DNA of 64,000 nt, taken from the NCBI GenBank assembly GCA_965200965.1, contig OZ241744.1:2592001-2656000 (forward strand). Direction: 5' to 3'. Under the pieces are notes generated by a model, which made no database searches, was not told where the DNA came from, and was given only the letters and a program-made list of their open reading frames with translations. Source of the stretch: an uncultured Candidatus Binatia bacterium. Lineage in GTDB: Bacteria > Desulfobacterota > Binatia > Bin18. Shown here in pieces: positions 12,649-36,014 of this stretch (within the stretch, counting starts at the first letter, position 1; each line of letters starts with the position of its first letter). A program made the position numbers and the translations under genes.

Positions 12649-13349
12649 CAGGAGTCCTGCGGGCCGTTTTCCTGGCGGGCCTCTTTGCGGGCCCGGCGAC
12701 CCAGGTAGCCGCCGTGGTGGAACTTGGCGTAGTCGGCCTTGGTGAAGCCCTTGCGGTCCATCAGCACCAGGGCCAGGGCGTCGCCAAGGGCCATCATGGC
12801 CGCGGTGCTTGACGAGGGGGTGAGGCCGAGCGAGCAGGCTTCTTTGACCGCGCCGATACTCAGCACCACATCGCTCTGGCGGGCTATGGGCGAGCGCGGG
12901 TGGCCGGTGATGGCGATCAGCGGCAGACTGTTGAGCGCTTTGGCCCGGCCTAGCATCTCGATGACTTCCCGCGTTTTGCCGCTGTTGGAGAAGATGATCA
13001 TCACGTCGTCGGGGCTGACGAGGCCGAGATCGCCGTGGGCGGCTTCTCCGGGGTGGAGAAAGCAGGCCGGCGTGCCGGTTGATGACAAGGTGGTGGCGGT
13101 TTTCAGGGCGATGATGCCGACCTTGCCCATGCCGGTGGTGATGACCTTGCCCTTGCAGTGCTGCAAAATCTGGACCGCACGCAGGAAATCGGCGGTGAGC
13201 GGAATGGCCCGGATGGCCTCGGCCTCGGCGGTCAGCACGGCCCGGGCCCGGACGAGTTCGGGGGGCAGGTCAAAAGCAGTGAACGTGTCATCAGATCGAC
13301 CGGAAGGCGACACATTCACTCCTCGCGGCTTGTTCTTGCGGGGCGGCAT
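12648..13349 (-). CDS. KpsF/GutQ-family SIS sugar-phosphate isomerase (no CBS domains)
   Basis: TTGMGK, HPGEAAHGDLG, SNSGKT, EAC.LGLTP and FHHGGYLG. Confidence 0.9.
   Translation of the reverse strand: MPPRKNKPRGVNVSPSGRSDDTFTAFDLPPELVRARAVLTAEAEAIRAIPLTADFLRAVQILQHCKGKVITTGMGKVGIIALKTATTLSSTGTPACFLHPGEAAHGDLGLVSPDDVMIIFSNSGKTREVIEMLGRAKALNSLPLIAITGHPRSPIARQSDVVLSIGAVKEACSLGLTPSSSTAAMMALGDALALVLMDRKGFTKADYAKFHHGGYLGRRARKEARQENGPQDS
13274..13324. repeat. 51-bp palindromic element family 1, in frame in the KpsF-like N-terminus
   Basis: Encodes RGVNVSPSGRSDDTFTAF; 41-bp core is the exact reverse complement of 15572-15612. Confidence 0.92.
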
Positions 13350-13351
13350 GG

Positions 13352-15466
13352 TCAGGTGTGGGCCTGTGCCGGCCGGCCGCCTTTGGTGCGCGATTTGCCT
13401 GGCCGTCGGGCGGTCTTTTTGGCCGCCCGACGGCTGGTGGCTGGGGTCGCCTCAGCGGCTCCGGTCGGGGCCGGCAGGCCGAGGCTGTGCTGCTCCAGGG
13501 CATGCAGATGGTTGCGCAACCGGGCGGCTTCTTCAAACTCCAGGGCGGCCGCGGCGTCCTGCATGGCCTGGCGGGTCTGGTCAATCTGTGCGGCCAACTG
13601 CTGGGCATGGTCCTGGCTGTCCTCCGCCACCGCGGGAATGTCTCCATAGTCGGCCTCGTAGACCCTGACCAGGGGCGAGGCCAGCGCTTTCTGAACGCTC
13701 TGCGGGGTGATCTTGTGCCGCGTGTTGTAGGCCGACTGAATCCGCCGCCGGCGCTGGGTCTCGTCAAGCGCCCGGCGCATGGAAACGGTGATCGTATCAG
13801 CATACATCAGGACCTGGCCGTTGACGTTCCGGGCCGCCCGGCCAATGGTCTGGATCAAGGATCGCTCGGAGCGCAGATAGCCCTCTTTGTCGGCGTCAAG
13901 AATCGCCACCAGAGATACCTCGGGGATATCCAGCCCTTCGCGCAGGAGGTTAATGCCGATCAATACGTCAAAGGTGCCGCAGCGCAGGGCGCGCAGGATT
14001 TCGACCCGCTCAATGGTGTCAATATCAGAGTGCAGATAACGGACTTTGACCCCGATGTCCTGGTAATAGTCGCTCAGGTCTTCGGCCAGCCGCTTGGTCA
14101 GGGTGGTGGCCATGACCCGCTCGCCCTGGTCTACCCGCTTGCGGATTTCTTCCAGCAGGTCGTCAACCTGGTTCCTGGCCGGGCGGACAATGACTTCGGG
14201 GTCAAGCAGGCCGGTCGGGCGGATCAATTGCTCGACAATGTGCCGCCGGCTCTTGTCCAGCTCATAGTCGCCGGGCGTGGCCGAGACATAGATGGCTTGG
14301 CCGACCTTGCGCTCAAACTCCTGAAAGCTGAGCGGGCGGTTATCAATAGCCGACGGCAGCCGAAAGCCGTATTCCACCAGGGTGGTCTTACGCGAGCGGT
14401 CGCCGCGGTACATGCCGCCGATCTGCGGAATGGTGACATGGCTCTCGTCAATGAACAGCAGGTAGTCATCAGGAAAATAATCGATCAGGGTGGAGGGCGG
14501 TTCGCCCGGCTGGCGGCCGTCCAGATGCCGGGAGTAGTTCTCAATGCCGGGGCAGAAGCCCATCTCGGCCAGCAGGGCCAAGTCGTAGCGGGTGCGTTGC
14601 TCCAGGCGTTGGGCTTCCAGTAGTCTGTTGTCGGCCCGCAGTTCCTCAAGCCGCTGATCGAGTTCGGCCTGGATCGCCGCGGCCGCGGTCCGGGTCCGGC
14701 TTGCACTGGTGACATAGTGGCTGGCCGGATAGATGGTGACTTTGTCCAGCCGGCGCGTGACCTTGCCGCGCAGCGGGTCAATTTCTGCCACTGACTCAAT
14801 GCTGTCGCCAAAGAACTCGATGCGGACGGCTCTGCTCTCTTCGTAGGCCGGGAAGACCTCAACCACATCGCCGCGCACCCGGAAGGTGCCGCGATGAAAG
14901 TCAAAATCGTTCCGCTGGTACTGGATATCGACCAGCTTGCGCAGTAGGGCATCACGGTCAACCTCGGTGTTTTCCTCGACAAACACGATCAGGTCAAAGT
15001 ACGACTCAGGCGATCCCAGGCCATAGATGCACGACACGCTGGCGACAATGATGGTGTCGCGGCGCTCCAACAGGGCCTTGGTGGCCGAGTGGCGCATTTT
15101 GTCGATCTCTTCGTTGATGGCCGCGTCTTTCTCAATATAGGTATCGCTCTGGGGGACATACGCCTCCGGCTGGTAGTAGTCGTAGTAGCTGACAAAATAG
15201 CGCACCGCGTTGTGGGGGAAGAGTTCGGCAAACTCGCTGTACAACTGGGCCGCCAGCGTCTTGTTGGGGGCGATGATGAGGGCCGGGCGGTTTGACCGGA
15301 CGATGACATGAGCCATTGAGAAGGTCTTGCCCGAGCCGGTCACGCCAAGCAGGACCTGGTGCCGGTGGGCCTGCCTGAGTCCCTCAAGCAGGGCGTCAAT
15401 CGCCTGGGGCTGGTCGCCCTGGGGCTGAAAATCCGAAACGATCTGAAATACGCCGTCCTGTCGCAT
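13352..15466 (-). CDS. uvrB: Excinuclease ABC subunit B
   Basis: [36 protein letters not shown] and C-terminal UVR domain. Confidence 0.99.
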
Positions 15467-15566
15467 GGCTGCGCATCGTAGCAGGAATGCCGCAGAAAGC
15501 AGAGGGTGGCCGGCCCTTGAAGGGGGACATTGCAAAACGGGCGTGCTTATGGCTGACTACGGCAGA

Positions 15567-15617
15567 GAGACGTGAATGTGTCGCCTTCCGGTCGATCTGA
15601 TGACACGTTCACGCCTT
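15567..15617. repeat. 51-bp palindromic element family 1, in the uvrB/cupredoxin divergent intergenic region
   Basis: GAGA CGTGAA TGTGTCGCCTTC CGGTCGATCTGA TGACACG TTCACG CCTT. Confidence 0.92.
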
Positions 15618-15646
15618 GACGAATCGTGCGGGAGGGAGAAGACGTG

Positions 15647-16036
15647 ATGAAACTGATGTATGGGCGGACAGTGCGTCGCGCGTTGGGGCTCAGCCTGCTT
15701 GTGTGGACTCTTGCTCAGCCCGGCGCGGCCCAGGAAGCTGGGGCTGAGCCAAAGACATTCACGGTCGTGAATGTGCTTTTTGAAGGCTCAAAGATGTTTG
15801 TGCCTTCGGTGTTGGCCGTATCCAAGGGGGATCGGGTCTCGGTCACGGTCATCAACAATATCCCCGGCGAGCCTCCCAACCACGGGTTTGCGATTCCGGC
15901 TTTCGGGGTGGAGACGGTGGTCAACCGCGGCGAGAAAAAGACGCTTGAGTTTACCGCGGACAAGGCCGGGATTTTTGATATTCAGTGCCAGTTGCACCCG
16001 GCCCACCTGCACGGGCAGTTGATCGTAGCGGAATAG
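15647..16036 (+). CDS. Exported cupredoxin-domain protein
   Basis: Signal peptide; HGF..., FTADKAG and CQLHPAH copper-ligand pattern. Confidence 0.85.
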   Translation: MKLMYGRTVRRALGLSLLVWTLAQPGAAQEAGAEPKTFTVVNVLFEGSKMFVPSVLAVSKGDRVSVTVINNIPGEPPNHGFAIPAFGVETVVNRGEKKTLEFTADKAGIFDIQCQLHPAHLHGQLIVAE

Positions 16037-16042
16037 GGCCGC

Positions 16043-17038
16043 TTATGTCCGGCCCACTTTCTGCAACAGCGCCTCGACGAGCGCATCCGGCTGTATGCCC
16101 TCGGCTTCGGCCTGAAAGTTGAGCAGACAGCGGTGTCGCAGTGCCGGCAGGGCCACATCGGCGATGTCTTCGTAGCTGACATTCACCCGCCTATCCAACA
16201 ACGCGTTGACTTTCGCCCCCAGGGTCATGGCCTGCGCACCCCGGGGGCTGGGACCAAAGCGCAGATACTGGTTGATCTCGGGCAGGGCCTCTGGATTGCC
16301 CGGGGTGGCCGAGGCAATCAGGCGGGCGATGTAGCGGTTCAGCGGCGGGGCCAGCAGGACTTCCCGGACAAGCCGCTTCAGTTCTTCCACCTTGGCCGCG
16401 GCCTGCTCTTCAGAGTTGAGCAGCGCGTGCGCCTCAGCCCGCTCGTCGGCGGTCGTCCGGTTGAGGATCTCGGTCAGTTCCTCGGTACTGGGCGGGTGAA
16501 TGATGAGCTTGAACAAAAATCGGTCGAGTTGGGCTTCGGGCAGCGGATAGGTGCCCTCAATTTCAATCGGATTCTGGGTCGCCATGACAAAAAAGGGCGG
16601 GGGCAGGCGGTGGGTCTGGCCAAACACCGAGACTTGGTGTTCCTCCATCGCCTCCAGAATGGCCGACTGGGTTTTGGGCGTGGCCCGGTTGACCTCATCG
16701 GCCAGCACAATATGGGTGAAAACCGGACCTGGTTTGAACACAAGTTCGCCGCGGCTCCCGGACAAGATTTCTGTGCCCACAATATCCGACGGCATCAGGT
16801 CGGGGGTAAACTGAATCCGCTTGGCACCTAAGGTCACCGCCTGACTTAGGGATTTCATCAGCAGGGTTTTGCCCAAGCCGGGCGCACTCTCCAGCAGGAC
16901 ATGCCCTCCAGCAAAAAAGGCTGTCAGCACCTTGCTCACAATCTCGCGATTGCCGACAATAACGCGCCCGACCTCCTCCTCCAGCGCGCTGAAGAACTGA
17001 CAAAAGCGCCCGATTCGATCTTCGTCTGCCTGGATCAT
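16043..17038 (-). CDS. MoxR family AAA+ ATPase
   Basis: APGLGKT, RIQFTPDLMPSD, DEVNRATPKTQSA and EGTYPLPEAQLDRF. Confidence 0.95.
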   Translation of the reverse strand: MIQADEDRIGRFCQFFSALEEEVGRVIVGNREIVSKVLTAFFAGGHVLLESAPGLGKTLLMKSLSQAVTLGAKRIQFTPDLMPSDIVGTEILSGSRGELVFKPGPVFTHIVLADEVNRATPKTQSAILEAMEEHQVSVFGQTHRLPPPFFVMATQNPIEIEGTYPLPEAQLDRFLFKLIIHPPSTEELTEILNRTTADERAEAHALLNSEEQAAAKVEELKRLVREVLLAPPLNRYIARLIASATPGNPEALPEINQYLRFGPSPRGAQAMTLGAKVNALLDRRVNVSYEDIADVALPALRHRCLLNFQAEAEGIQPDALVEALLQKVGRT

Positions 17039-18519
17039 TCTGTCCTGGGGTCAGCATCGTCTACCGCATTGAGAAGCGGACGGTACTCCAGGGGGATCGG
17101 CTGGCGTACCCGCGCTGGGCCGCGCTGCCGGTCCGTGAGCGGGGCGTTGCTGTACGGTGTTCTGGGCCGGGCTGGGCTGGTATTGGCCGTGCGTTGCCAG
17201 GTGTCGCTCCGGGCCACCTCTCCGACCGGTACCCGGACTTTGACAAAGCGCGCGTCTCTGGTCAGAAAACCGCCCGGTTTTTCTCCAGCCTGGACACGGG
17301 CTTTTCCTTGGCTTGGGCCTTTGCCGCCGCCCTGCCCTTTGGGGCCGGCCCGGTTGGGGTCGGACTGGGGACCGGGCGTATTTCTGTCCGGTCGGTGTCG
17401 CTCCCCGGGGATATTCGGGTCGTCTCCTTGGGCGCGCTGGGTGGGGGCGTGTCGGGGCGACACACCCCTCGCCCCGTCTGCCTGTTGCTCAGCCGGGGGT
17501 TGCTGTTGGCCGTGCCGCTCTGTCTGCTCAAATTGAATACCGCCACCCTGTTGGGACGGCTTGTGGTTCTGATCGCCCTCTGACGGCCCGGCATCCCGCG
17601 GCTGTTGGCCGGCTTGGGTCCCCTCGGCCGCGGAGGAAGGTGTGTTGAGTCCCTCGGACTGTTTGGCGAGGTCCTGTTTCTGATTGCCGCCCGCCCCGTC
17701 ATTCCGGCCCTCAGCAACAAACAACTTCAGGTCAATTGGCAGCAGTTGCGGTAGCCGGATATCCAGTGTAATACGCTGCTCAGCCTCCTCAATCAGGCGT
17801 TCTTTCTGGCGGCGGCTCAGACCCGGCATCCTGAGTTGCTCAACCAGGGCGACAAGTTCGGTGCCGGCCGCTTGCTCCTGTGGCGTGTTGCCCTGAGCCG
17901 CCAGCTCACGCGTCTTTTTTTCGAGTTCGGCCAGGGACTCGGATGAGGGGTCGAGGCTGGGAGAGAGCCGTGCCGAAATGGGCTGAGGCTGAGGCCGCGG
18001 CCAGAACAGGCCCAGGGCGACGGCCACACACAGGCCGGACACCAGCAGGCCGATTGGCACACGCCTGTCCAGCTGGAAGGGTACCTCCCGTTCTGGAACA
18101 AAAAACGCCGCCCGTCTGGCCGTGTCACGCTGGAGAAAGAGCGCCATGTGGTCTGGAGGCTGAGCGAGGGTTACCAGGGTCAGAAAGCGCTCTTTGCTCA
18201 GCGTTTTTTCGTCCAGCAGCGCGGCCGCGGTCTCGTGGCTCATGTGGACGTGACGCAGGGTCTTCCAGAAGAAGAAAGCCCACCCTCCGAGGGGACCGAG
18301 CAACAGGGTGAGCGGCCAGGACAAGCTCACCAGCGTCAATGAACCGCCCAGCCCAAGTGCCAGCCCCAGGGGCAGAAAAAAGCTCAGGATGTTGAGATAG
18401 CGGTGCCGACGGAGGCGCTGAGCCGTCCTGTTGATAACGCCGGGAATCATGACCTCCTTGTGATCGCTGTTGTCACGATTCCCGGTGTGGGCCGGAGGCG
18501 GGCGGCTGGGGTCTTGCAC
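17035..18519 (-). CDS. Membrane protein with coiled-coil and G/Q/P-rich tail (MoxR-associated hypothetical)
   Basis: 3 TM-like segments, low-complexity tail, IPLEYR C-terminus; overlaps the MoxR start by 4 nt. Confidence 0.75.
   Translation of the reverse strand: MQDPSRPPPAHTGNRDNSDHKEVMIPGVINRTAQRLRRHRYLNILSFFLPLGLALGLGGSLTLVSLSWPLTLLLGPLGGWAFFFWKTLRHVHMSHETAAALLDEKTLSKERFLTLVTLAQPPDHMALFLQRDTARRAAFFVPEREVPFQLDRRVPIGLLVSGLCVAVALGLFWPRPQPQPISARLSPSLDPSSESLAELEKKTRELAAQGNTPQEQAAGTELVALVEQLRMPGLSRRQKERLIEEAEQRITLDIRLPQLLPIDLKLFVAEGRNDGAGGNQKQDLAKQSEGLNTPSSAAEGTQAGQQPRDAGPSEGDQNHKPSQQGGGIQFEQTERHGQQQPPAEQQADGARGVSPRHAPTQRAQGDDPNIPGERHRPDRNTPGPQSDPNRAGPKGQGGGKGPSQGKARVQAGEKPGGFLTRDARFVKVRVPVGEVARSDTWQRTANTSPARPRTPYSNAPLTDRQRGPARVRQPIPLEYRPLLNAVDDADPRTE
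17441..17470. repeat. Short REP-like hairpin inside the low-complexity CDS tail
   Basis: GTGGGGGCGTGTCG-GGG-CGACACACCCCTC. Confidence 0.4.
18437..18488. repeat. ~52-bp palindromic element family 2, in frame near the CDS 5' end
   Basis: ACGCCGGGAATCATGAC...GTCACGATTCCCGGTGT; encodes TGNRDNSDHKEVMIPG; 30 bp identical (inverted) to the 19707 copy. Confidence 0.9.
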
Positions 18520-18528
18520 GGATCTGTC

Positions 18529-19560
18529 CTAAGAGCGGCTGGGGGAGCGGTATCTTTGAAAACGCCGGACAGCCCGATTGTGCTCGGCCAGGCTGGATGA
18601 AAAATGATGGGTGCCATCGCCGCGAGCCACAAAGTACAGGTAGTCGGTGTCTGCCGGGTAGAGGGCAGCCCGCAGGGCAGCCAGGCCGGGGCTGGCGATC
18701 GGGCCGGGCGGCAGGCCCCGGATCACATAGGTGTTATACGGCGTTGGCGTGCGCAGGTGATGACGGGTGAGATTGCCGTCAAAGTTCTCGATGCCATAGA
18801 TAACGGTCGGGTCGCACTGGAGCCGGATGCCCCTGCGGAGCCGATTATGAATCACCGCGGCGATCAGCGGGCGTTCGGCAGCCTGGCCGGTCTCTTTTTC
18901 AATAATTGAGGCCAGCGTCACCACCTCGTGCAGGCTCAGCCCAAGCTCGGCCGCCCGCCGAGCTTGGGCCAAGTCCCAGGCGGCATAAAAACGGGCGATC
19001 ATGCGGCCCAGGATATCCCGGGCCGAGGCGTGGGCCGAGAACTGATAGGTGGCCGGGTAGAGGTAGCCTTCGAGGCTGTTGGCCGGCAGTCCCCAGTCGG
19101 CCAGAAACCCAGGGTCGGCATTCAGACACAGAAAACTCTCCACCGTCCCAAACCCCTGCCGTTCCAGCAACTGCGCGATCTGAGCCAGGTTGAATCCCTC
19201 TGGAATAGTGACGGTCCGGCGCACGAGTTGGCCCCGGTTCAGCCGGTTGAGCAGAGCCAGCGGAGACAGCGACCCGACAAAGACGTATTCGCCGTGCTTG
19301 ATGTGTCTGTCCATGCCGCTCAGGCGGGCCCACAGGCGAAAGACCCAGACCTGACTGAGCAGCCCTTCGGCGTGCAGATGCCGGGCAATTGCTTTCAATG
19401 ACGAGCCGCTTTGGACAAAGAAACGAACCGGCTGGTGCAGCGGTGGCTCCGGTGTGACCAAGGCACGATGGCCAAACCAGGCAACACTCCCACCGAGCAG
19501 GAGCGGCACAAGCAGGATGGCCAGAAACAGGTGGCGCTTTCCCCGCTTGCCTGTCCGCAT
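18529..19560 (-). CDS. mltG: Endolytic transglycosylase MltG
   Basis: TIPEG, LEGYLYPATY, LASIIEKET, LQCDPTVIY and YNTY..GLPPGPI. Confidence 0.96.
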   Translation of the reverse strand: MRTGKRGKRHLFLAILLVPLLLGGSVAWFGHRALVTPEPPLHQPVRFFVQSGSSLKAIARHLHAEGLLSQVWVFRLWARLSGMDRHIKHGEYVFVGSLSPLALLNRLNRGQLVRRTVTIPEGFNLAQIAQLLERQGFGTVESFLCLNADPGFLADWGLPANSLEGYLYPATYQFSAHASARDILGRMIARFYAAWDLAQARRAAELGLSLHEVVTLASIIEKETGQAAERPLIAAVIHNRLRRGIRLQCDPTVIYGIENFDGNLTRHHLRTPTPYNTYVIRGLPPGPIASPGLAALRAALYPADTDYLYFVARGDGTHHFSSSLAEHNRAVRRFQRYRSPSRS

Positions 19561-19681
19561 AGCAAAAGACACTACCATTCCCCGCTCTGCAACACAATCT
19601 CGGCGGCCGCGGTCGTTCTTGACATTCCTGTCTGGGGCTGGCAAGCTTGGCTGTATTCTCCACCGGGGGGCTGAATACGAG

Positions 19682-21178
19682 ATGGGACGGAACACGGGCG
19701 CTTTCCACACCGGGAATCGTGACAACAGCGATCACACCCAACTCAGGATTCCCTGTGTCACCCATACAGCGCAACATGGCTCCATTCAGTTCCTGATTCT
19801 GGCTCCTGTTCTGACCCTTTGCCTTTTAGGGCTTATTGTCCGCAGCGCCAGTTCGGCCGTCGATCATCGGATTGAAAAGCAAAAGATCGCCGAACAACTC
19901 AGGCAGCGTTTGAGCGAGGTCTACAGCGACCCCACTCCGCCGCGGCTGAGCCGCCCCGCTCCGGAGCCGACGGCTGAGCCGCCCGCTGTGGCTGAGCCGG
20001 CCGCTGCTCAAGTGGCAGCTGCAACTGCCGAGCAGCCATCTCAGCCCCAATCCTTCCCGCTCCAGACCACGCACACGGTGCGCAAGAAGGATACCTTTGA
20101 GACCATACTGCGAGGCCAGGGGCTTGGCCGGAGCGCCGCCAGCACCTGGATTACGGCCTGGATTACGGCCGCCGGAAAAGAGAAGCAAGTCCGCAATCTG
20201 CAAATCGATCGGCGCTTCTCTTTTGTTTTTGATGAAGGTCCCGAAGAGCCGCTTCTGACCAGTCTGAGCTATGACCTCAGCGCCCTCTCACGGCTGACTC
20301 TTGAACGAAGGCCAGACGGCAACGTTACCTCCCGCCTCGAAGCGCTGCCGACCAGCCTGGTGTGGCGGGCGGTCTCTGGCCGGATTACCAGTAGTCTGTA
20401 CGAGGCGGCGGTAAACACCGCCGGGGTGCCCGACCGTATTGTTGACGAAATGATTGATCTGGGCTGGGATTTCGATTTCTCTTCCGACCTGAGGGCCGGC
20501 GACACCTTCAAGGTGATCTTTGAAGAATACCAGCGTGACGGCCAGCCGGTTCAATATGGGCGAGTCCTGGCGACTGAAATCGTCAATCAAGGCAAGTCCT
20601 CGACAGTCTTGTCACTTGACCAAACCGAGGGCTTCCTGCGCTATCCGCTGCGTTTCACCCGGATTTCGTCGGTGTTTACCAAGGCCAGGTTTCATCCTGT
20701 TCTCAAACGTCACCGGCCTCATAACGGCGTTGATTTTGCCGCCCCACGCGGTACGCCGGTACGGGCGGTGGCCAATGGGAGGGTCACCTGCGCCGGTTGG
20801 GAGGGCGGGTTTGGTCGGCTTGTCCGCATTGACCATCCTGGGGCGTACTCCACCGAGTACGCCCATCTGCATAGCATTGCCAAAGGGATCAGGGTTGGAG
20901 TGCGGGTCAAGCGTGGTCAAAAAATTGGCAGTGTAGGTTCGACCGGTTTGGCCACTGGACCGCATCTCCACTTCGGGCTGTTCAAGAATGGCAGATATGT
21001 AAATCCGTTGAGCGCAAACCTTCCCAGAGTTCCGAAAACCGATACGCGCAAACCGGACCCGGTCCGGGCCAAGCTGAAAAAAACGCTGACCGAATACCTG
21101 GCTCGGCTGGAGCCTGACCAGGCCTCAACTTTTGCCGCGGTAGAAACGACCAAGCCGCCAAGCCGGCCCCGCTCCTGA
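19682..21178 (+). CDS. M23 family peptidoglycan endopeptidase (MepM-like)
   Basis: HNGVDFAA, YAHL and STGLATGPHLHF; N-terminal TM; start uncertain. Confidence 0.92.
   Translation: MGRNTGAFHTGNRDNSDHTQLRIPCVTHTAQHGSIQFLILAPVLTLCLLGLIVRSASSAVDHRIEKQKIAEQLRQRLSEVYSDPTPPRLSRPAPEPTAEPPAVAEPAAAQVAAATAEQPSQPQSFPLQTTHTVRKKDTFETILRGQGLGRSAASTWITAWITAAGKEKQVRNLQIDRRFSFVFDEGPEEPLLTSLSYDLSALSRLTLERRPDGNVTSRLEALPTSLVWRAVSGRITSSLYEAAVNTAGVPDRIVDEMIDLGWDFDFSSDLRAGDTFKVIFEEYQRDGQPVQYGRVLATEIVNQGKSSTVLSLDQTEGFLRYPLRFTRISSVFTKARFHPVLKRHRPHNGVDFAAPRGTPVRAVANGRVTCAGWEGGFGRLVRIDHPGAYSTEYAHLHSIAKGIRVGVRVKRGQKIGSVGSTGLATGPHLHFGLFKNGRYVNPLSANLPRVPKTDTRKPDPVRAKLKKTLTEYLARLEPDQASTFAAVETTKPPSRPRS
19707..19758. repeat. 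~52-bp palindromic element family 2, in frame with the M23 ORF N-terminus
   Basis: ACACCGGGAATCGTGACAACAGCGATCACACCCAACTCAGGATTCCCTGTGT; encodes TGNRDNSDHTQLRIPC. Confidence 0.9.
20145..20170 (+). repeat. Exact 12-bp in-frame tandem duplication (WITA x2)
   Basis: CCTGGATTACGG twice. Confidence 0.85.
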
Positions 21179-21261
21179 GCCCACACGGCCCGGGCTGCTA
21201 TGGCCTCAGGCTGCATGGCCGGGAGTTGACGCCCTCAAGCCGCTCACATAGGGACACAGCA

Positions 21262-21576: not shown

Positions 21577-21578
21577 TG

Positions 21579-21985: not shown

Positions 21986-21990
21986 GTAGT

Positions 21991-27824: not shown

Positions 27825-27966
27825 TCGTCCACGAGAGAAAGACAGCCACGACCGCCTTTCCCCCCACTCCAACACCCACGCCAGAAACCCGCGGCCAAGG
27901 CTTGCAGGAGGCTTTTCAAACTTGCTACATATCTGCGCAACCGCAGACCAGACAGGGGCGACACCG

Positions 27967-28536
27967 ATGAATACACAACACAGCGAACCATCTCCACAGC
28001 AGAGCAGAGAGATTGCCACCCTCGGCGGCGGCTGCTTCTGGTGTCTCGAAGCGGTCTATGTCGAACTCAAGGGCGTTGAGCAGGTGGTGTCCGGCTACAC
28101 CGGCGGGCAGGTTCCAGACCCGTCGTATGAGGCGGTGTGTGCCGGCACGACCGGCCACGCCGAAGTGGTCCAGGTGACGTATGACCCCGGGGCGATCTCC
28201 TTCCAGGACATCCTCCAGGTCTTCTTCACCATCCACGACCCGACCACCCTGAACCGCCAGGGCGCGGATGTCGGCACCCAGTACCGATCGGCCATCTACT
28301 ACCACACCCCGGCCCAGGCAGAGATTGCCGCCGCGGTCATCCAGGAGCTTGAGACCGCCGGCGTGTGGGACGGCAACATTGTCACCGAAGTCACCCCGGC
28401 CGGTCCCTTCTATCCGGCAGAAGACTACCACCAGGACTTTTTCGCCAACAATCCCTACCAGCCCTACTGTCAGTATGTCGTGGTCCCCAAGGTCACGAAG
28501 CTGCGCAAAGCCTTTGCCGAAAAGCTCAAACGCTAA
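27967..28536 (+). CDS. msrA: Peptide-methionine (S)-S-oxide reductase
   Basis: GGGCFWC, HDPTTLNRQGADVGTQYRS and AEDYHQ. Confidence 0.98.
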   Translation: MNTQHSEPSPQQSREIATLGGGCFWCLEAVYVELKGVEQVVSGYTGGQVPDPSYEAVCAGTTGHAEVVQVTYDPGAISFQDILQVFFTIHDPTTLNRQGADVGTQYRSAIYYHTPAQAEIAAAVIQELETAGVWDGNIVTEVTPAGPFYPAEDYHQDFFANNPYQPYCQYVVVPKVTKLRKAFAEKLKR

Positions 28537-28560
28537 GCCTCCCTCACAGGTGAAGGAGGA

Positions 28561-29817
28561 ATGACGATGGCTGATATGGTGGAGGAGGGACGGGAATATT
28601 GCCGTCTTCGGGGCGAGGGGCATTCAATCGAAGAAATCGCCTCAACGATTGGGAAGAGGGCTCAGTATGTCCGAGACCGGATTGCGGTGTGGAACTCTGG
28701 TGATGACCTCAAGAAAGTAGCAAAGGACATTGACCAAGGGGGGATAGGCAAGAACTTTGCCGCGCGGATCGCACGGCGGACCAAAGACGACCCTGAGAAG
28801 CAAAAGGAGTTGGTCAAGCGAGCGAAGAAGGGGCCTGAAGAGCGGGAAAAGATCAAGAAAGAGCTTAACCAAAACGGCCGGGTCGTGACCCGCTTTCCGC
28901 CCAAAGGAAGGGAACGGGAACTTGTCCCTGACCCTTCTCCTACTCCCGACCTGAACACCCTGGCCGGCGAGCTCCTGTTCGACATTGCCGAGTTGCGTAA
29001 CATTGAGCGGCTGCTTGACGACAAACGCCAAGTCATCTTTCAGGGGCCGCCCGGAACGGGCAAGACCTATGTTGCGCAGCAGCTGGCGGCCTGCCTGGCC
29101 GGCTCTGATGAGCGCGTCCGGCTGGTCCAGTTTCACCCGTCCTACGCCTACGAGGATTTCGTCCAAGGCTTCCGCCCCACGCTGGAGGGCGGGCAGCCCG
29201 GCTTTACGCTCAGAGACGGCCCGCTGCTGGAAACGGCCAAGAGGGCGCGGGAGGAGCCGGACACGCGCCACTTTCTGGTGATTGACGAAATCAACCGTGG
29301 CAATCTCGCCAAGGTGTTCGGTGAGCTCTATTTTCTGCTGGAGTACCGGGACCACAAGATGCGCCTGCTGTACGCCGATCGGCCGTTCTCGCTCCCCGCC
29401 AATCTCTTCATCATCGGCACGATGAACACCGCCGACCGCTCCATTGCGCTGGTAGACCTCGCGCTGCGCCGCCGCTTCCACTTCGTAGAGTTCCACCCCG
29501 ACACGCCGCCGGTCAAGGGGCTGCTGAGGCGTTGGCTGGCAGAGAACAAGCCCGATATGGCGCAGGTGGCCGCCCTTGTTGACCGTGCCAACGAGAAGCT
29601 GGACGACCGGCAGGCGGCCATCGGCCCGAGCTACTTTATGAAGGACGGCCTCAACGAGGAAACGCTGAGCCTGATCTGGCAGCACAACGTGCTCCCCTAC
29701 ATCGAAGAGCATCTGTATGGGGAGCGCGACCGCCTCGGCAAGTTCGCCCTTGATGAACTCCGGCGCGACGTGAGACAAGACCGCGGCGAGCAGGACGCCG
29801 GCGATGCGTCAGATTGA
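28561..29817 (+). CDS. mcrB: McrB-family AAA+ GTPase with ParB-like HTH N-terminus
   Basis: GPPGTGKT, QFHPSYAYEDF, IDEINRGN and MNTADRS signature. Confidence 0.9.
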   Translation: MTMADMVEEGREYCRLRGEGHSIEEIASTIGKRAQYVRDRIAVWNSGDDLKKVAKDIDQGGIGKNFAARIARRTKDDPEKQKELVKRAKKGPEEREKIKKELNQNGRVVTRFPPKGRERELVPDPSPTPDLNTLAGELLFDIAELRNIERLLDDKRQVIFQGPPGTGKTYVAQQLAACLAGSDERVRLVQFHPSYAYEDFVQGFRPTLEGGQPGFTLRDGPLLETAKRAREEPDTRHFLVIDEINRGNLAKVFGELYFLLEYRDHKMRLLYADRPFSLPANLFIIGTMNTADRSIALVDLALRRRFHFVEFHPDTPPVKGLLRRWLAENKPDMAQVAALVDRANEKLDDRQAAIGPSYFMKDGLNEETLSLIWQHNVLPYIEEHLYGERDRLGKFALDELRRDVRQDRGEQDAGDASD

Positions 29818-31039
29818 TCTGTGTGAACACGTCCCAAGCGCCCCCGTCCGGCTTTCTGTCACCGAGCGCGACCGCCTGCGTGAAGTCCTGCCCTCACTCG
29901 CCATTGCGCCGGCGCGTGGCCAAGACGGCGTGTACTGCCTGACCCCCGGTTCCACCATCGGCGCGCTTGAGATTGGCGAGCTGTCGGTATCCATCCGTCC
30001 CAAACTTGACATTGCGCGCGTCCTCTTCCTGGCCTCCTACGCCCTGGGCGCGTTCAGACTGCGGGACAGGGAGCGTTTCGATTTCGAGGACGCGCCGTCG
30101 CTTGTCGAAGCCCTGGCCTTAGCGCTTGTTGCCGCGGCCCGCCGGGCGTTTGCCCACGGCCTGCTCCACGGCTATCGGACCGAAGAAGAGGCCCTGCCCA
30201 CCGTTCGTGGCCGCGTCCGCACCGCCGAGCAGATACGCCGCCGGTTCGGCGTCGCTCCGCCCCTTGAAGTCCGCTACGACGAGTTTACCTGTGACATCAC
30301 GGCCAACCGCCTGGTGAAGGCGGCTGCCGCGCGGCTCGGTCGCAGACGGCTCCGCGGGCCGCGCACCCGCGCCGGCCTCGGCTGGGTCGGCACACGGCTG
30401 GAGAACGTATCGTCCGTCGAGTTCCCGGCGACCAGGGTTCCCGAAGTGGCATTTGACCGGCTGAACGCCCACTACCGCGAGGTCGTGGCCCTGTCGCGGC
30501 TCGTCCTGCGCCAGCACTCCTTTGAAGCCGGTCGCGGCCCCGCCCGGGCCGCCGGCTTTCTGATGGACATGAACACGGTCTTCCAGGGTTTTGTCACCCA
30601 GGCACTCCGGGAGAAACTCGGCCTCTCAGACAGAACATTCCGCACCGACACCGGCCTTCCCCGCCCCAGCCTTGATGAGGCCGGGCTGATTTTGCTCAAG
30701 CCCGACCTGTCGTGGTGGGACGGCCGGCGCTGCGTCTTTGTCGGCGACGCCAAGTACAAGCGCATCAACGAGCGCGTGCCCAACGCCGACCTCTATCAAC
30801 TCCTGGCCTACGCCAGCGCCCTTGAGTTGCCGGGCGGGCTGCTCGTCTATGCCGAGGGCGAGGCCGAGCCGGCGGTCCATCGCGTCCGCCACGCTGGAAA
30901 ACGGCTGGAGATTGCCGCCCTTGACCTGTCCGGAACAACAGATGCATTGCTGGCCGACATTGGCAAGCTGGCGCACAGCGTCCGCGCCTTGCGCCATACA
31001 GTTGGCGGCTTGAGGCCGGGCGGTGTCGCCGTGGCCTGA
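29804..31039 (+). CDS. mcrC: McrC-family restriction nuclease
   Basis: DMNTVFQ, LKPDL..DAKYK and DLYQLLAY; overlaps mcrB. Confidence 0.9.
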   Translation: MRQIDLCEHVPSAPVRLSVTERDRLREVLPSLAIAPARGQDGVYCLTPGSTIGALEIGELSVSIRPKLDIARVLFLASYALGAFRLRDRERFDFEDAPSLVEALALALVAAARRAFAHGLLHGYRTEEEALPTVRGRVRTAEQIRRRFGVAPPLEVRYDEFTCDITANRLVKAAAARLGRRRLRGPRTRAGLGWVGTRLENVSSVEFPATRVPEVAFDRLNAHYREVVALSRLVLRQHSFEAGRGPARAAGFLMDMNTVFQGFVTQALREKLGLSDRTFRTDTGLPRPSLDEAGLILLKPDLSWWDGRRCVFVGDAKYKRINERVPNADLYQLLAYASALELPGGLLVYAEGEAEPAVHRVRHAGKRLEIAALDLSGTTDALLADIGKLAHSVRALRHTVGGLRPGGVAVA

Positions 31040-31092
31040 CTTGTCCTGGCCGGTCCAGGATGCTTTAAGTTTCAGCCACAAGGAGGACAGCC

Positions 31093-31857
31093 ATGCCCAT
31101 GTTTGACGACTACGCCCACGCCTACAAGCACGTTCGCATGGAACGGCGGGACGGCATTTTGCAGATGCAACTCCACACCGACGGTGGCACGCTGCGCTGG
31201 GGAGAGGGGCCGCATTCCGAGTTGGGGCGCTGCTTTTACGATGTCGGCAGTGACCCGGACAACAAGGTCATTATTCTGACCGGGACGGAGGACAAGTTTA
31301 TCGCCCGCTTCGCGCGTGAGGACCAGTGGGAGATCACCCCCCAACGCTGGGACCATATCTACTGGGACGCCAAAAAGCTGCTGATGAACCACCTCGATAT
31401 TGAGGTACCGATGATTGCCGCGGTCAACGGCCCGGCCACCATCCACGCCGAGCTGGGCGTGCTGTGTGATATCGTGCTGGCGACCGAGGACAGCGTCTTC
31501 CAGGACGCGCCCCATTTTCCAAACGGCATCGTGCCAGGCGATGGCGTGCATGTGGTCTGGCCGCTGCTGCTCGGCATCAACCGGGGCCGCTACTTTCTGC
31601 TGACCGGCCAGAAGCTATCGGCTCAGGACGCGCTGAACCTCGGTGTGGTGAACGAGATTGTGCCGCGTGAGCAACTGCTGGCCCGCGCCTGGGAGCTGGC
31701 CGGGCAGATCGCCGACCAACCGCGGCTGACCGTCCGCTACGCCCGGGTTGCCCTCACCCAGCAACTCAAGCGGCTGATGCTTGACCACCTCGGCTACGGC
31801 CTGTCGCTGGAAGGCTTGGGCGCGAACGATTACTGGCCGGGCGGCAAAAAGCGTTAG
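31093..31857 (+). CDS. Enoyl-CoA hydratase/crotonase family (6-oxocamphor hydrolase-like)
   Basis: [13 protein letters not shown] and DAPHF..G.VPGDG. Confidence 0.88.
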
Positions 31858-33062
31858 AGCGGACGGTCGCTGGCTTGGCCCAACAGGTATTTGCCCATCA
31901 GTTCGGCCACCCGGTCGGGGTGGGCGTTGATATGCAGCGGCATGGCCTGAAAGTCACGATAACGGCGCGCAAAGGACCCGCTCTCACGCAGGCCATTGCC
32001 GCCCTGGACCCTGAGCATCAGGCGCATGGCTTCGTCACACAGCCGCAGGGCAACCATGCTGTAGCCCAACTGACGCAGATAATCGGCTTCGGTCGGGCTT
32101 CTCCCGGCTTCAATGCGGGCGTCGGTCTCGGTGCAGCCCGTTTCGACCGCGGCCCGGGCCGCAGCAATTGAGGCCCCGGCCTGACCGATGTTGAGTTGCG
32201 CCGAGGGCCGTTCGGCGACTTTGACGCCAAAGATGGCGACCCGGTCTGCCAGTTCAGCACAGGCTTCCTCCAACGCGGCGCTGGCAAGGCCGACCGCTTG
32301 GGCGGCGAGCCACAGGTCTGACAGGGCAACCCAGTCTTCCCGATAGCGTTGGGCCACAACGGGGGTCTGGGGGTCGCGGAAGGTGTAACGAAAATCGAGC
32401 GGAAAAGGCCGCAGCAGGGAGGCCGGAATCGAGACCGCCTCGTAGTTGATATGGTCGGTGGCCGACGCCCGCAGGCTCATCGAGTTCCAGGTTGGATCAA
32501 TCGACACCCCCGGGGTGTCGGTCCGAACCAGCGTAAAACGCATATCCGGCTTCCCCTTGGGCTGTGTCTCCCTATCGTCCAAAGCAAACACACACGCCGC
32601 CCACTCGCCATAGCGCGAGCCAGAGGCAAAACTTGCCCGGCCGCTCAGAATCACCCGGTCTCCGTCACACCGGCCCCGCACACTCGTTCCCGCTCCAGCC
32701 GGAAAACTGACCCATTCCCGCTTGTCCACAATCTGCCCTAAGAGGGCCGCGGCCTGTGGTCCCATCTGGGCCACAATGAAGTGGAACACGCACAGATGAT
32801 TCCACACACACCAGGCGGTTGAGGCGCAGCGGCCGGCTACTGCCTCAAGCTCCCTGGCAATCTGGCCGATGCTGGCCTCTACCCCACCGATAGTGCGGCT
32901 GGCCGACAGGCGCATGACATCGGTCTGTTTGAGGGCCTGAATAAGGTCCGGGTCAAGGCTGCGGGTGCGGTCGGCCTGGGGAGCTTGCTCGGCAATCCGG
33001 TCCAGCAGCGGCGCGCAAACCAATGGGTGCTCCCGCCCCATAAACTCCTGTACGCTATTCAT
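31854..33062 (-). CDS. Acyl-CoA dehydrogenase-like flavin-dependent monooxygenase (HsaA-like)
   Basis: [20 protein letters not shown] and RRYRD..A..LH. Confidence 0.8.
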
Positions 33063-33080
33063 ACGCAGACTCTCCTTCTC

Positions 33081-34475
33081 CTACCCTTGCCAGTATTGCT
33101 GCACCCAGGCCAGGGCGGCTTCACGGCTCGCCAGCTTGCCTTCGAGCTGCGCGTCTTCAACCGCGGTCAGAATGTCTGTGAAGCGCGGTCCGGGGCGGAG
33201 GCCAAGGGCGATGAGATCACGGCCGGTCAGGAGACGCGGCGGCGCGAGTTGGACCGGCCCGAGGCGTTCTCGCTGCCGGCGGCAGAACTCGTATGGACGC
33301 AGGTCGCCGCTTGAGGCCAGGGCGTCGAGGCGCGCCAACTCCAACAGTTCTTCAATGCCGTCTTCGCGCAGAAACCGTTTGAGCTTGGCCGGACGCATAT
33401 TCGGGGCGCTGAGCAGCCGCAGATGGTTCTTGACCAGATAGGCCACCCGCTGCCACACTGCGCGTGAGCGTTTCAGCCGTTGACAGATGGCCACCGCCTG
33501 CTCTGCCCCCTGCTCACAGTGACCAGAAAACGTGGTGCGCTGTGGCTTGACCATGTCGTGCAGCAGAGCGCCAAGCGCCAAAGTTTCGCTCAGGACGGAA
33601 TGTGTCGCTTTCCCCTCGGTCTGTTGACACGTTTCGTCCTGTGGCCGCCCATCTGCCCATTTGTCCAGTTCGGCCAGCAGCAGCAGGGTATGGGTGAACA
33701 CATCCCCCTGTGGATGAAAATCGGGCGATTGCTCAACGCCGCGCAGCGCTTCGATTTCGGGCAGGATGACGGCCAGCAGGCCGGTCTCGGCCAGCAGTTG
33801 AAAACCGCGCTGGCCCCCGCCCTCGGTGAGAATCTTGACGACCTCGTCACCGATCCGTTCCCAGGCGATAGTGCTGATCCTTGGGGCGAGGGCTTGGAGG
33901 GCGGCGAAGGTCTGGGGGGCGAGGGCAAATCCCAGCCGGGCGGCAAACCGGACGGCGCGGATCAGGCGCAAGTGATCCTCGCGGAAACGGGCCACCGGAT
34001 CGCCAATGGCCCGGATCACCCGCTGGCTCAGGTCGTGTTGGCCGCCAACATAATCAATGACCTGCTCGGTAACGGTATCGTAGAACATGCCGTTGATGGT
34101 GAAATCGCGCCGCCGCGCGTCTTCCCGCGCATCAAGGCCGGAATGTGTCGCCTTCCCCTCGAGATGTTGACACGTTTCATCCTTGCTGAAGCGGACGCCG
34201 GTCGGGTGGCGTCCGTCAAGATAGCGGCCGTCGGCCCGAAAGGTCGCCACCTCTACTTTTGAGACCAGCACGACCCCGAACTGCACCCCAATTGGGACGG
34301 CCTGGGGAAACAGGCTCAGGACTTGGTCGACCCGGGCGCTGGTTGCCACATCAAAATCCTTGGCCTCCAGCCCCAGCAGGCGGTCGCGTACACAGCCCCC
34401 GGCCAGATAGGCGCTGAAACCGTGGGCGTGCAGCGTCTCAATAATCGTTCGAGCATGGCGTTCCTGGGGGCTCAC
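33081..34475 (-). CDS. cca: CCA tRNA nucleotidyltransferase with HD domain (two 17-aa element insertions)
   Basis: GGCVRD, KDFDVAT, EVATFR, RRDFTIN, EDHLRLIRAVRF and LLHD; GTG start inferred. Confidence 0.93.
   Translation of the reverse strand: MSPQERHARTIIETLHAHGFSAYLAGGCVRDRLLGLEAKDFDVATSARVDQVLSLFPQAVPIGVQFGVVLVSKVEVATFRADGRYLDGRHPTGVRFSKDETCQHLEGKATHSGLDAREDARRRDFTINGMFYDTVTEQVIDYVGGQHDLSQRVIRAIGDPVARFREDHLRLIRAVRFAARLGFALAPQTFAALQALAPRISTIAWERIGDEVVKILTEGGGQRGFQLLAETGLLAVILPEIEALRGVEQSPDFHPQGDVFTHTLLLLAELDKWADGRPQDETCQQTEGKATHSVLSETLALGALLHDMVKPQRTTFSGHCEQGAEQAVAICQRLKRSRAVWQRVAYLVKNHLRLLSAPNMRPAKLKRFLREDGIEELLELARLDALASSGDLRPYEFCRRQRERLGPVQLAPPRLLTGRDLIALGLRPGPRFTDILTAVEDAQLEGKLASREAALAWVQQYWQG
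33591..33641. repeat. 51-bp palindromic element family 1, in frame in the cca HD domain
   Basis: CAGG ACGGAA TGTGTCGCTTTC CCCTCGGTCTGT TGACACG TTTCGT CCTG; encodes QDETCQQTEGKATHSVL. Confidence 0.95.
34134..34184. repeat. 51-bp palindromic element family 1, in frame in the cca catalytic head
   Basis: AAGG CCGGAA TGTGTCGCCTTC CCCTCGAGATGT TGACACG TTTCAT CCTT; encodes KDETCQHLEGKATHSGL. Confidence 0.95.
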
Positions 34476-34547
34476 CCGGCTATGGTGACACGGCCAGGAA
34501 GCAGGATCAACTTGTCGGAGACGGTCCGGCTGGTTAGACTGAGGCCC

Positions 34548-36014
34548 ATGAAGCTGACGGCAGAACAGGTGTGCGCCGCCACGCGCGGAACGCTGAGCTC
34601 CGGGCCGGCAGACACGCTGTTTCGTTCGGTGACAATTGACTCCCGCACGGCCAGCCAGGGGGCTTTGTTTGTACCGCTGCCCGGTGCCAGGACCGACGGC
34701 CATGCCTATCTTGGGGCGGCCGTTCGGCGGGGAGCCGCCGGCTTCCTGTACGCCCGCCAGGCCGTGGCCACGCTGCCAACCGGGGCAAGGGCGAAACGTG
34801 CCAACATCCCGGGGGGAAGGCGACACGTTCCGGCCTTGGTGAGCATTGGCGTATCAGACCCCCTGACCGCCCTCCAGGACCTCTCGGCCTGGCACCGCGC
34901 CAGACTGCCGGCCACGGTCGTCGGCATCGCCGGCAGTAACGGCAAGACGACCACCAAAGAATTGCTGGCCCAGGTGTGCGCCGCTCACCGGCCGAGCCTG
35001 GCCACCCCGGGCAACCTGAACAATCAGATCGGCCTGCCGCTCAGCCTGCTGCGGGCCGACGGTGACGAAGACATCCTGATCCTGGAGATGGGTACCAGCG
35101 GCCCCGGTGAGCTGAGCAGGCTCAGCCGCCTGGCCCGTCCGCATATCGGGGTCATCACCTCAATTGCCGAAGAGCATACCGAGATGCTGACCGACCTGTC
35201 CGGTGTGATCGAAGCCGAGACCGAGCTGCTCGCGGCTCTGCCCGGCGATGGGCTGGCAATTGTGCCTGGCGATGATGCCGCCCTGGTGGAGACCGTCCGG
35301 GGCCGGGCCGTGTGTCGGATTGTCACCTTTGGCGAACACGCGAGCAACGCCTTCCGGGCCGCTGACATCCGGGTTTCCCGGCAGGGAACGCAGTTCATGG
35401 CCCAGACCCCGCTTGGGGCCCGTCCGGTCCGCCTGGGTCTGCTGGGCAGTCATTTTGCCCTGGCCGCGCTGGTGGCGATTGCCGTTGCAACTGAGTGCGG
35501 TATTGGCCTGGACGCGGTATGCGAGACCCTGGGCACGGCCCGCGGCGCGCCGCGGCGCATGGCGGTCATTGCCGTGCCCGAGTGCGGCCTGACGATTCTT
35601 GACGACTGCTACAATGCTAATCCCGCCTCCGTGCAACAGGCCCTGCTGACCGCCGGGCAGGTGCGTACCGCGGGCGAGCGGCTGATCGTCGTGCTGGGCG
35701 ATATGCGGGAGTTGGGAGCGATCAGCCTGGTCCGCCACCAGGAAATGGGCGAGCTGGTGGCGCGCCTTGACCCCCACCCGGACCTGCTTGTTACGGTGGG
35801 ACAGGAAGCCCGGGCTATTGCCGACCAGGCCCGGGCCAAAGGGGTAGCGGTCCAGACCTTTGCTGCGGCGGATGAGGCCGCGGCTTTTCTCCACGACACC
35901 CTTCGGCCCTCTGCCGGCCGGCACTTGGTGCTGGTCAAAGGCTCGCGCGGAGTACAGCTTGAACGTGTCAGCCAAGCCCTGACCGGCCCCTGCCCGGATG
36001 AGAGCGAGGCGTGA
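34548..36014 (+). CDS. murF: UDP-MurNAc-tripeptide--D-Ala-D-Ala ligase
   Basis: IDSR, DGH, GSNGKTTTKE, NNQIGLP, DCYNANP, LGDMRELG and KGSRG. Confidence 0.96.
   Translation: MKLTAEQVCAATRGTLSSGPADTLFRSVTIDSRTASQGALFVPLPGARTDGHAYLGAAVRRGAAGFLYARQAVATLPTGARAKRANIPGGRRHVPALVSIGVSDPLTALQDLSAWHRARLPATVVGIAGSNGKTTTKELLAQVCAAHRPSLATPGNLNNQIGLPLSLLRADGDEDILILEMGTSGPGELSRLSRLARPHIGVITSIAEEHTEMLTDLSGVIEAETELLAALPGDGLAIVPGDDAALVETVRGRAVCRIVTFGEHASNAFRAADIRVSRQGTQFMAQTPLGARPVRLGLLGSHFALAALVAIAVATECGIGLDAVCETLGTARGAPRRMAVIAVPECGLTILDDCYNANPASVQQALLTAGQVRTAGERLIVVLGDMRELGAISLVRHQEMGELVARLDPHPDLLVTVGQEARAIADQARAKGVAVQTFAAADEAAAFLHDTLRPSAGRHLVLVKGSRGVQLERVSQALTGPCPDESEA
34787..34837. repeat. 51-bp palindromic element family 1, in frame in murF
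   Basis: AAGG GCGAAA CGTGCCA ACATCCCGGGGG GAAGGCGACACG TTCCGG CCTT; encodes RAKRANIPGGRRHVPAL. Confidence 0.93.

What the first reader, a model, noticed from the sequence alone, without database searches (positions are those of the whole stretch)
13274..34837. Element copies show stem covariation and local, inverted pairing
Seen: arms co-vary between copies (CAGG/CCTG vs AAGG/CCTT; AGTGAA/TTCACT vs CGTGAA/TTCACG vs ACGGAA/TTTCGT). Neighbouring copies are the most alike. 13279-13319 and 15572-15612 are a perfect 41-bp inverted pair bracketing uvrB. The 33591/34134/34787 trio shares a CCCYCG..TGT loop, with 34134/34787 inverted around the cca-murF divergent promoter. Family 2 copies are inverted around mltG. 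Inference: the hairpin is maintained, and spread is by local hopping or gene conversion; inverted pairs might also allow inversions.
Basis: partly seen in the sequence, partly recalled or inferred. Interest (0 to 1): 0.7.

Follow-up and report, generated by a model that had tools for sequence, protein, structure and literature searches.

The report
Gene-invading hairpin with topoisomerase signature
A 51-base DNA hairpin sits at 94 places in this bacterium's chromosome, often in frame inside genes and without a scar, likely spreads by short hops, and its ends and landing sites match the cutting rule of the cell's own topoisomerase I, which may be the enzyme that moves it.

Summary
The copies are real: 94 ungapped 51-bp (17-codon) hairpins genome-wide. 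The scan found this family before, here and as a 54-bp form in other Binatia.

Supported: stem covariation (at least 30 double changes on a tree against 0-2 in slid controls) and neighbour similarity (11.1 against 16.2 mismatches within 10 kb).

Not supported: inverted pairing (33 inverted, 31 direct) and covariation of the terminal pair. The 'promoter-flanking' copies lie inside cca and murF; the 13274 copy lies inside a kdsD-like gene. No inversion was seen.

Not in the earlier notes shown: a target rule. C sits four bases 5' of the junction on one strand at 87 of 94 sites (52% by chance) and at 25 of 25 clean empty sites. The element's own 3' ends carry that C at 228 of 242 ends. This is the published topoisomerase I (TopA) cleavage rule. 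Y1, IS110, serine recombinase and topo IB were not found in this genome. Best guess (0.4): host TopA moves the hairpin. Untested; an undetected transposase is the main rival.

The parts
11174..11224 (-). 51-bp hairpin copy, intergenic, next to a type I restriction S-subunit gene
   Evidence: C at -4 on one side
13274..13324 (-). 51-bp copy in frame in the N-terminal tail of the kdsD/KpsF-like SIS-domain ORF (12648-13349)
   Evidence: site empty in G007
15567..15617 (+). 51-bp copy in the divergent gap between uvrB and a cupredoxin gene; 41 bp identical to the 13274 copy
   Evidence: site empty in G007
33591..33641 (+). 51-bp copy in frame in cca (17 extra residues before SETLALG)
   Evidence: G007 keeps a 30-bp relic, other genus members lack it
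34134..34184 (+). 51-bp copy in frame in cca, 17 residues just before the RRDFT motif
   Evidence: shared with G007; G003 has a different 45-bp hairpin at the same junction
34787..34837 (-). 51-bp copy in frame in murF; likely daughter of the 34134 lineage (same left arm and GATGTT loop end)
   Evidence: blunt empty site in G007
51989..52035 (-). 47-bp internally shortened copy that supplies the stop codon of the 1069-aa ORF 48788-51997
   Evidence: site empty in G007
18437..18490 (-). family-2 hairpin (GGGAATCGTGA arms), older, shared with G007; likely in frame near the start of ORF 17035-18519
19705..19758 (+). family-2 hairpin, inverted to the 18437 copy, shared with G007; likely in frame near the start of an M23 peptidase gene
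5084..5130 (.). family-2-type hairpin, absent at the G007 site
33081..34475 (-). cca host gene (tRNA nucleotidyltransferase), two in-frame copies, dN/dS 0.28 against G007
34548..36014 (+). murF host gene, one in-frame copy, dN/dS 0.22 against G007

Best explanation
This is a 51-bp palindromic element that inserts bluntly, without a target duplication, at sites with a C four bases 5' of the junction on one strand, likely hops over a few kilobases, and is likely moved by the host's own topoisomerase I (TopA) rather than by a dedicated transposase. SHOWN: precise 51-bp presence/absence, tolerance of in-frame insertion, local clustering of related copies, stem covariation, the C(-4) rule in targets, and the same near-invariant C(-4) at both of the element's 3' ends. 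INFERRED: in transiently unwound DNA one strand folds and brings its two feet together. TopA would cut after the flank's CNNN and after the element's TCCTT-like end, and reseal the donor strand. It would then join the carried strand into a nearby CNNN site; replication would copy it into the other strand and raise copy number. Only copies that still fold would move, which would select for compensated stems. A length of 17 codons lets insertions in genes survive. The 'mobile, scarless, locally spreading hairpin' part has confidence about 0.9; the score below is for the whole statement including TopA.
For: Precise insertion: 26 of 58 G000 copies with an aligned G007 flank gave a net 51 (the rest are shared, degenerate or blurred by flanking indels). 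The 25 of 85 alignments that passed a cleanliness filter show blunt junctions and no consistent duplication. Target rule: 87 of 94 sites against 52% background (P about 1e-17). It holds at 43 of 45 intragenic sites against 23.1 expected from phase-matched positions, at 23 of 27 G007 copies and at 25 of 25 empty sites. It also holds for 14 of 14 off-length family members, picked by eye from 33 loose hairpins of which 24 obey. In the 54-bp relatives it is 64 of 89, and 30 of 35 with perfect stems. The two sides are anti-correlated (Fisher P 1.6e-5), as expected if one strand suffices. T is enriched at -5 (58 of 137 against 27). Element 3' ends have C at -4 in 228 of 242, T at -5 in 173 and T at -2 in 216. 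Pair 4-48 never changes on both sides while pairs 3 and 5 do. Published rule: bacterial topoisomerase I cuts four bases 3' of a C; the E. coli motif is TCNTTA/T (bioRxiv 2021.10.26.465782; PMC3467081). G000 has one type IA topoisomerase, which keeps R169, R173 and Y177. Not found in G000 (99.3% complete, one contig): Y1/RAYT, IS110 (96), serine resolvase (97), topo IB (93). Only two tyrosine recombinases are present (86). G.T and A.C mismatches are balanced (75:64), which points to DNA rather than one RNA strand.
Against: No experiment, and a single-base rule is weak identification. TopA needs single-stranded DNA, yet the element's terminal C is paired in the folded stem, so the foot would have to fray. 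Targets also show a mirrored preference on the other side (C/A at +5 and +6, P 5e-6 and 5e-4) that the E. coli motif does not predict and that suggests a symmetric two-strand step. The E. coli motif is AT-rich and cuts a TA step; these targets are not. Predicted inheritance of strand polarity between related copies was not seen (1:2, 10:11 and 26:20). There is no G.T bias on the C-strand inside the stem (64:60); at the terminal pair it is 30:16, P 0.054. No bias by replichore, gene strand or divergent gap. TopA is universal, so it cannot explain why only two genera carry the element. The window copies are present in the related strains laid, so movement may be old and a transposase could have been lost since. 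In the 54-bp set only 17 of 32 one-mismatch copies obey the rule, and copies inside another REP-like repeat do not (left out of that count).
Confidence: 0.4

Rival explanations
1. It is a REPIN/TIR-dimer-like non-autonomous element moved in trans by a dedicated transposase (HUH/Y1 such as a TIRYT, or an unrecognised family) that has been lost from this genome or escapes the profiles used.
For: Same anatomy as REPINs: a hairpin with compensatory changes and scarless excision (PMC3116915 passages). The inner arm ends resemble the TIRYT motif GGGGWSAS with 1-2 mismatches (motif from PMC3733652; comparison by eye). HUH enzymes have the same 5'-phosphotyrosine polarity. The mirrored +5/+6 target preference suits a dimer. 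The patchy presence across genomes suits a mobile helper.
Against: No Y1 match at E<=0.001 in G000, G003, G005 or G007, which all carry the element. In 10 high-copy genomes the Y1 loci had no element arm within about 1.5 kb. No GTAG-type foot. No base-pair 'guide' covariation between element and target. Known RAYT cleavage is at CT/CA dinucleotides. No orphan arm pair enclosing a gene was seen in G000.
Confidence: 0.33
2. No strand-transfer enzyme is involved: the hairpin is copied locally by template switching at replication forks or during gap repair, and arms are homogenised by arm-to-arm correction and gene conversion.
For: The similarity range is under about 10 kb. Copies are enriched near the GC-skew minimum (50 of 94 within 500 kb against 26 expected). 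Several stem positions change together in single lineages. The G000 copy at 34134 differs from its G007 orthologue in one arm, toward its neighbour.
Against: Template switching normally needs microhomology (established knowledge), and junction homology was not above chance. It does not predict a C(-4) rule or exact 51-bp blunt ends. It may still explain the covariation under any model.
Confidence: 0.15
3. One reading: copies are kept as inverted pairs that act as recombination sites for inversions of the genes between them.
For: One 41-bp perfect inverted pair brackets uvrB, and several close pairs are inverted.
Against: Close pairs are 31 direct and 33 inverted. Copies lie inside kdsD, cca and murF, so inversion would break them. 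uvrB is collinear in G007 and in strain contigs spanning both junctions. No serine resolvase was found.
Confidence: 0.04
4. The hairpins are maintained as functional RNA structures (terminators, RNase or protein sites).
For: Stable fold of about -29 kcal/mol as RNA; many copies sit at gene ends.
Against: G.T and A.C mismatches are balanced, orientation is random, sites turn over between close relatives, and there is no Rfam match in the window. Individual copies may still have side effects.
Confidence: 0.05

Closest known systems
Rickettsia palindromic elements (RPE; PMC10969869 and PMC3733652, passages)
   Same: Palindromic, non-autonomous, often in frame inside unrelated housekeeping genes; helper enzyme not established.
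   Different: RPEs are about 150 bp and end in CGTC. This element is 51 bp, symmetric, is read in several frames on both strands and has a C(-4) target rule.
REPINs with RAYT transposases (PMC3116915, PMC8266576, passages)
   Same: Single-strand hairpin with compensatory changes; scarless presence/absence.
   Different: No GTAG foot, no internal REP palindromes, no RAYT found in the genome, about half the copies intragenic, symmetric ends, clustering of related copies.
TIRYT/TIRtron TIR repeats, TnpA(Y1) subclass 2.1 (PMC3733652, PMC6006769, passages)
   Same: Short terminal-inverted-repeat dimers; the inner arm loosely resembles GGGGWSAS.
   Different: No Y1 gene flanked by these arms was found in the loci examined.
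54-bp Binatia hairpin family
   Same: Same arm type and ends, scarless, length a multiple of 3, same flank profile; one 54-type copy survives in G000.
   Different: The 54-bp form has fixed arms and a variable loop. The 51-bp form of G000 and G007 has a conserved loop and drifting, covarying arms.
Bacterial topoisomerase I cleavage sites (bioRxiv 2021.10.26.465782; PMC3467081)
   Same: C four bases 5' of the cut and T at -5; the element's ends fit TCNTT followed by A at the 5' junction.
   Different: Not described as a mobiliser in the papers seen. The targets here are GC-rich and have a mirrored downstream preference.

Membership tests
REP/REPIN-RAYT | GTAG/GGAG-type tetranucleotide foot 5' of the stem | tested here: not met
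   Flank logos show no fixed foot
REP/REPIN-RAYT | Cognate RAYT gene flanked by the repeat | tested here: not met
   No PF01797 or custom Y1 HMM hit in G000; Y1 loci of 10 high-copy relatives lack arms
REP/REPIN-RAYT | Hairpin with compensatory changes and scarless presence/absence | tested here: met
RPE-like coding palindromes | In-frame insertion in unrelated genes that stay under purifying selection | tested here: met
   45 of 94 inside crude gene calls; 21 host genes median dN/dS 0.28 against 0.20 for 808 others
RPE-like coding palindromes | RPE length (about 150 bp) and terminal CGTC tag | tested here: not met
   51 bp, ends RAGG...CCTY
MITE of a DDE transposase | Target-site duplication | tested here: not met
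   25 clean empty sites show no consistent duplication
TIRYT/TIRtron repeats | Y1 gene flanked by these TIRs with GGGGWSAS | tested here: inconclusive
   Loose motif likeness only; no flanked gene in the loci read; whole genomes of high-copy relatives were not scanned for orphan arms
IS91/ISCR (Y2) | CTTG/GTTC target and a Y2 transposase | tested here: not met
   1 of 94 sites has such a target; the PF04986 search was negative but its control did not ring
Type IB topoisomerase substrate | Topo IB gene present (the CCCTT-type site is recalled) | tested here: not met
   0 of 55 family genomes; control rang
Type IA topoisomerase I substrate | C at -4 of every junction that must be cut | tested here: met
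   87 of 94 targets; 228 of 242 element ends
Type IA topoisomerase I substrate | Host TopA with R169/R173/Y177 | tested here: met
Type IA topoisomerase I substrate | Actual cleavage and strand transfer by TopA | not testable with these tools
   needs biochemistry or genetics
Structured RNA family | Rfam match or one-strand G.U bias | tested here: not met

The most novel reading that the evidence does not exclude
A selfish element with no transposase at all: a 17- or 18-codon hairpin whose ends mimic the host topoisomerase I cleavage motif, so that an essential housekeeping enzyme cuts it out without a scar and pastes it nearby, seeding peptide inserts in essential proteins. This could also explain other transposase-less coding palindromes.
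Probability: 0.33. Interest if true: 0.9.

Novelty: new variant of a known kind. Interest (0 to 1): 0.6.

Why it matters
How small coding palindromes such as RPEs move has been open since they were described, because no helper enzyme is established. Here the junctions give a simple rule that matches a known enzyme and can be tested in a laboratory strain with existing topA mutants; R169A switches the preferred base from C to A. If true, topoisomerase I would be shown to act as an unwitting transposase, and a minimal scarless 51-bp insertion system would be defined. If false, this remains a clean natural survey of where CCA-adding enzyme, MurF and other proteins tolerate 17 extra residues. The family itself has been reported repeatedly by this scan, so its existence alone is of modest interest.

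Tried and rejected
Target-site duplications of 1-2 bp and coupling-sequence models: not consistent across 25 clean sites.

Guide-type pairing between element and target: no position clearly above permutation; the lowest P was 0.03, at one of 20 tests.

Candidate enzymes: Y1/RAYT/TIRYT; Y2 (84, control silent, so uninformative); reverse transcriptase (85: one interrupted RT in G000, none in G005 or G061, which carry the element); IS110 (96); serine resolvase (97); topo IB (93). DDE transposase families were not searched. A self-BLAST showed no obvious dispersed IS in the part of the output seen (cut). Pfam on 103 host and neighbouring ORFs (97 picked from 147 candidates, plus 6 window ORFs) gave no transposase.

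Strand-polarity inheritance, G.T bias, and replichore, gene-strand and divergent-gap biases were all null. The EM orientation was dropped as over-fitted. The G003 45-bp cca insert had no second copy at 3 mismatches in 41 genomes.

No RNA holder was listed among public runs. Laid contigs showed no 51-bp skip or inversion among the joints listed, but 73 joints were not shown, contigs drop rare variants, and in two runs they break at the 41-bp repeat.

The paper on cyanobacterial small dispersed repeats was not held, so that comparison was not made. Searches listed no paper proposing topoisomerase I as mobiliser of such repeats; the library lacks most subscription journals. No structure or complex prediction was run.
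Full report
WHAT IS THERE. The window lies at C1:2592001-2656000 of a one-contig 3.62-Mb genome. An earlier scan note calls it Binatia, and the related element is found in records titled Binatia. An iterated ungapped profile finds 94 copies of a 51-bp element (threshold 20; best score in a shuffled genome 0.2): a 16-bp stem and a 19-nt loop. A covariance model adds shortened and 52-54-bp members and finds seven copies in the window. There is no Rfam match.

The 41-bp inverted identity is exact and is the longest such run in the family, with 39- and 38-bp runs between distant copies. Covariation is real at inner pairs and survives a tree-aware count: at least 30 double changes against 0-2 in slid controls (the tree was built from the same 51 columns). 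Copies cluster: 33 gaps under 5 kb against 11.3 under uniform placement and 16.0 after jitter. Copies within 10 kb are more alike in the loop and in both arms, with no gradient beyond. Orientation of neighbours is random, 31 direct and 33 inverted.

33591 and 34134 lie in frame in cca, 34787 in murF and 13274 in a kdsD-like gene. An alignment of cca across relatives shows exact 17-residue inserts. G007 shares site 1 and keeps a 30-bp relic at site 2. G003 has a different 45-bp hairpin at site 1. Site 1 lies just before the RRDFT motif, where E. coli poly(A) polymerase is also longer than the Bacillus-type CCA enzyme. With a home-made gene caller, 45 of 94 copies are wholly inside genes, against 86% coding DNA. 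The frame that contains stops is used once. Twenty-one host genes with G007 orthologues remain under purifying selection, somewhat relaxed (median dN/dS 0.28 against 0.20 for 808 others).

MOBILITY. I fetched 1.6 of 3.6 Mb of the closest relative, G007 (about 90% identical). Of 58 G000 copies with aligned flanks, 26 gave a net 51. Of 85 alignments in both directions, 25 passed a cleanliness filter and show blunt junctions with no consistent duplication. Of 27 G007 copies I judged 6 to be shared. Of the other 21, 14 map within 3 kb of a G000 copy but at a different site (2.9 expected; 9 of 14 neighbourhoods against 2.5). About half of those are also among the closest in sequence. This fits local hopping with loss of the ancestral site; regional hot spots cannot be excluded. 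In contigs of related strains the cca and murF copies are present in three runs. One run spans both uvrB junctions collinearly.

WIDER FAMILY. The model hits 48-101 places in G001, G003, G005, G006 and G024. These are a 54-bp form with fixed arms (mode 54, then 55). The arm motif matched in 31 of 55 family genomes, at high copy only in two genera. The scan had noted both forms before. Family 2 in the window is an older relative with different arms, shared with G007.

TARGET RULE. On one strand or the other, a C lies four bases 5' of the junction at 87 of 94 sites (background 52%). It holds at 43 of 45 intragenic sites against 23.1 phase-matched, at 23 of 27 G007 sites and at 25 of 25 empty sites (these are correlated with the filled flanks). 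In the 54-bp form it holds at 64 of 89 non-redundant sites, and at 30 of 35 with perfect stems; copies inside one REP-like composite were left out and do not obey it. The two sides are anti-correlated. T is enriched at -5. The element's own 3' ends are most often TCCTT or TCCTC, with C at -4 in 228 of 242, and that pair never covaries. There is also a mirrored C/A preference at +5 and +6.

MECHANISM. Bacterial topoisomerase I cuts single-stranded DNA four bases 3' of a C, and the E. coli motif is TCNTTA/T (bioRxiv 2021.10.26.465782, passages). R169, R173 and Y177 read that C, and R169A switches it to A (PMC3467081, abstract and passages). G000's only type IA enzyme keeps these residues. Y1, IS110, serine resolvase and topo IB were not found in G000. 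Ten high-copy relatives have Y1 genes, but none had an element arm nearby. I therefore favour TopA-mediated scarless hopping of one folded strand (0.4). Against it: the paired terminal C, the mirrored +5/+6 preference, failed polarity and wobble predictions, and the patchy distribution. A lost or unrecognised transposase is nearly as likely (0.33); enzyme-free template switching gets 0.15. That TopA can transfer a strand between different sites in vivo is inferred and was not found in the papers read.

COMPARISON. It behaves like RPEs (PMC10969869, PMC3733652; passages) and REPINs (PMC3116915, PMC8266576; passages) but fails their defining sequence features. It has only a loose likeness to TIRYT repeats (PMC6006769, passages). 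No supplements were read; the TIR lists in PMC3733652 and PMC6006769 might bear on the TIRYT comparison. Searches listed no paper proposing topoisomerase I as mobiliser; the library is partial. The vaccinia-type CCCTT site and the role of microhomology in template switching are recalled, not from calls.

VERDICT. A real element and a new variant of a known kind. Covariation and local spread are confirmed; inverted pairing and inversion are rejected. The added value is the junction rule and a directly testable host-enzyme hypothesis. Interest 0.6.

Noticed in passing
window 38627-38664 and 42483-42520: GTAG-type REP-like repeats; 35 loose matches genome-wide. G000 has no RAYT hit, while G001, G006 and G024 carry a 171-aa RAYT-like protein.
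   Followed up: partly
window about 45655-45697: Truncated element remnant inside the 1131-aa ORF 43479-46874 (restriction-modification-like by eye).
   Followed up: no
G000 C1:271700-305600 and 1131700-1165200: Two tandem arrays of about 2.45-kb genes, 90-95% identical to one another, roughly 13 copies each. Not annotated.
   Followed up: no
L242, L247, L257, L258 and about 25 more loci: In other Binatia the 54-bp hairpin sits at one fixed junction inside another REP-like repeat, in both loop orientations and with many loop types; L258 shows an empty repeat beside a filled one.
   Followed up: partly
G000 C1:2840128-2842941 (L151): A cas3 gene carries three in-frame copies of the element, each in a different frame.
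   Followed up: no
L015 and L014 (cca of G021 and G004): Other 16-22-residue inserts at different cca positions, perhaps from unrelated small elements.
   Followed up: no
G000 C1:3254063 and G007 C1:1664771: Elements 3 bp apart and in opposite orientation at the same locus, next to what looks like the start of a tRNA gene: probably independent insertions.
   Followed up: no
L392 (G000 C1:2405378): Reverse-transcriptase gene with an internal TAG in G000; no stop inside the G007 match.
   Followed up: partly
window 9645-12648 and 37353-48061: Methyltransferase, type I S-subunit and large restriction-modification-like ORFs form defence-like blocks.
   Followed up: no
genome-wide: A further hairpin subfamily with GTGAACGATGA arms and similar ends, at least 5 copies.
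   Followed up: partly
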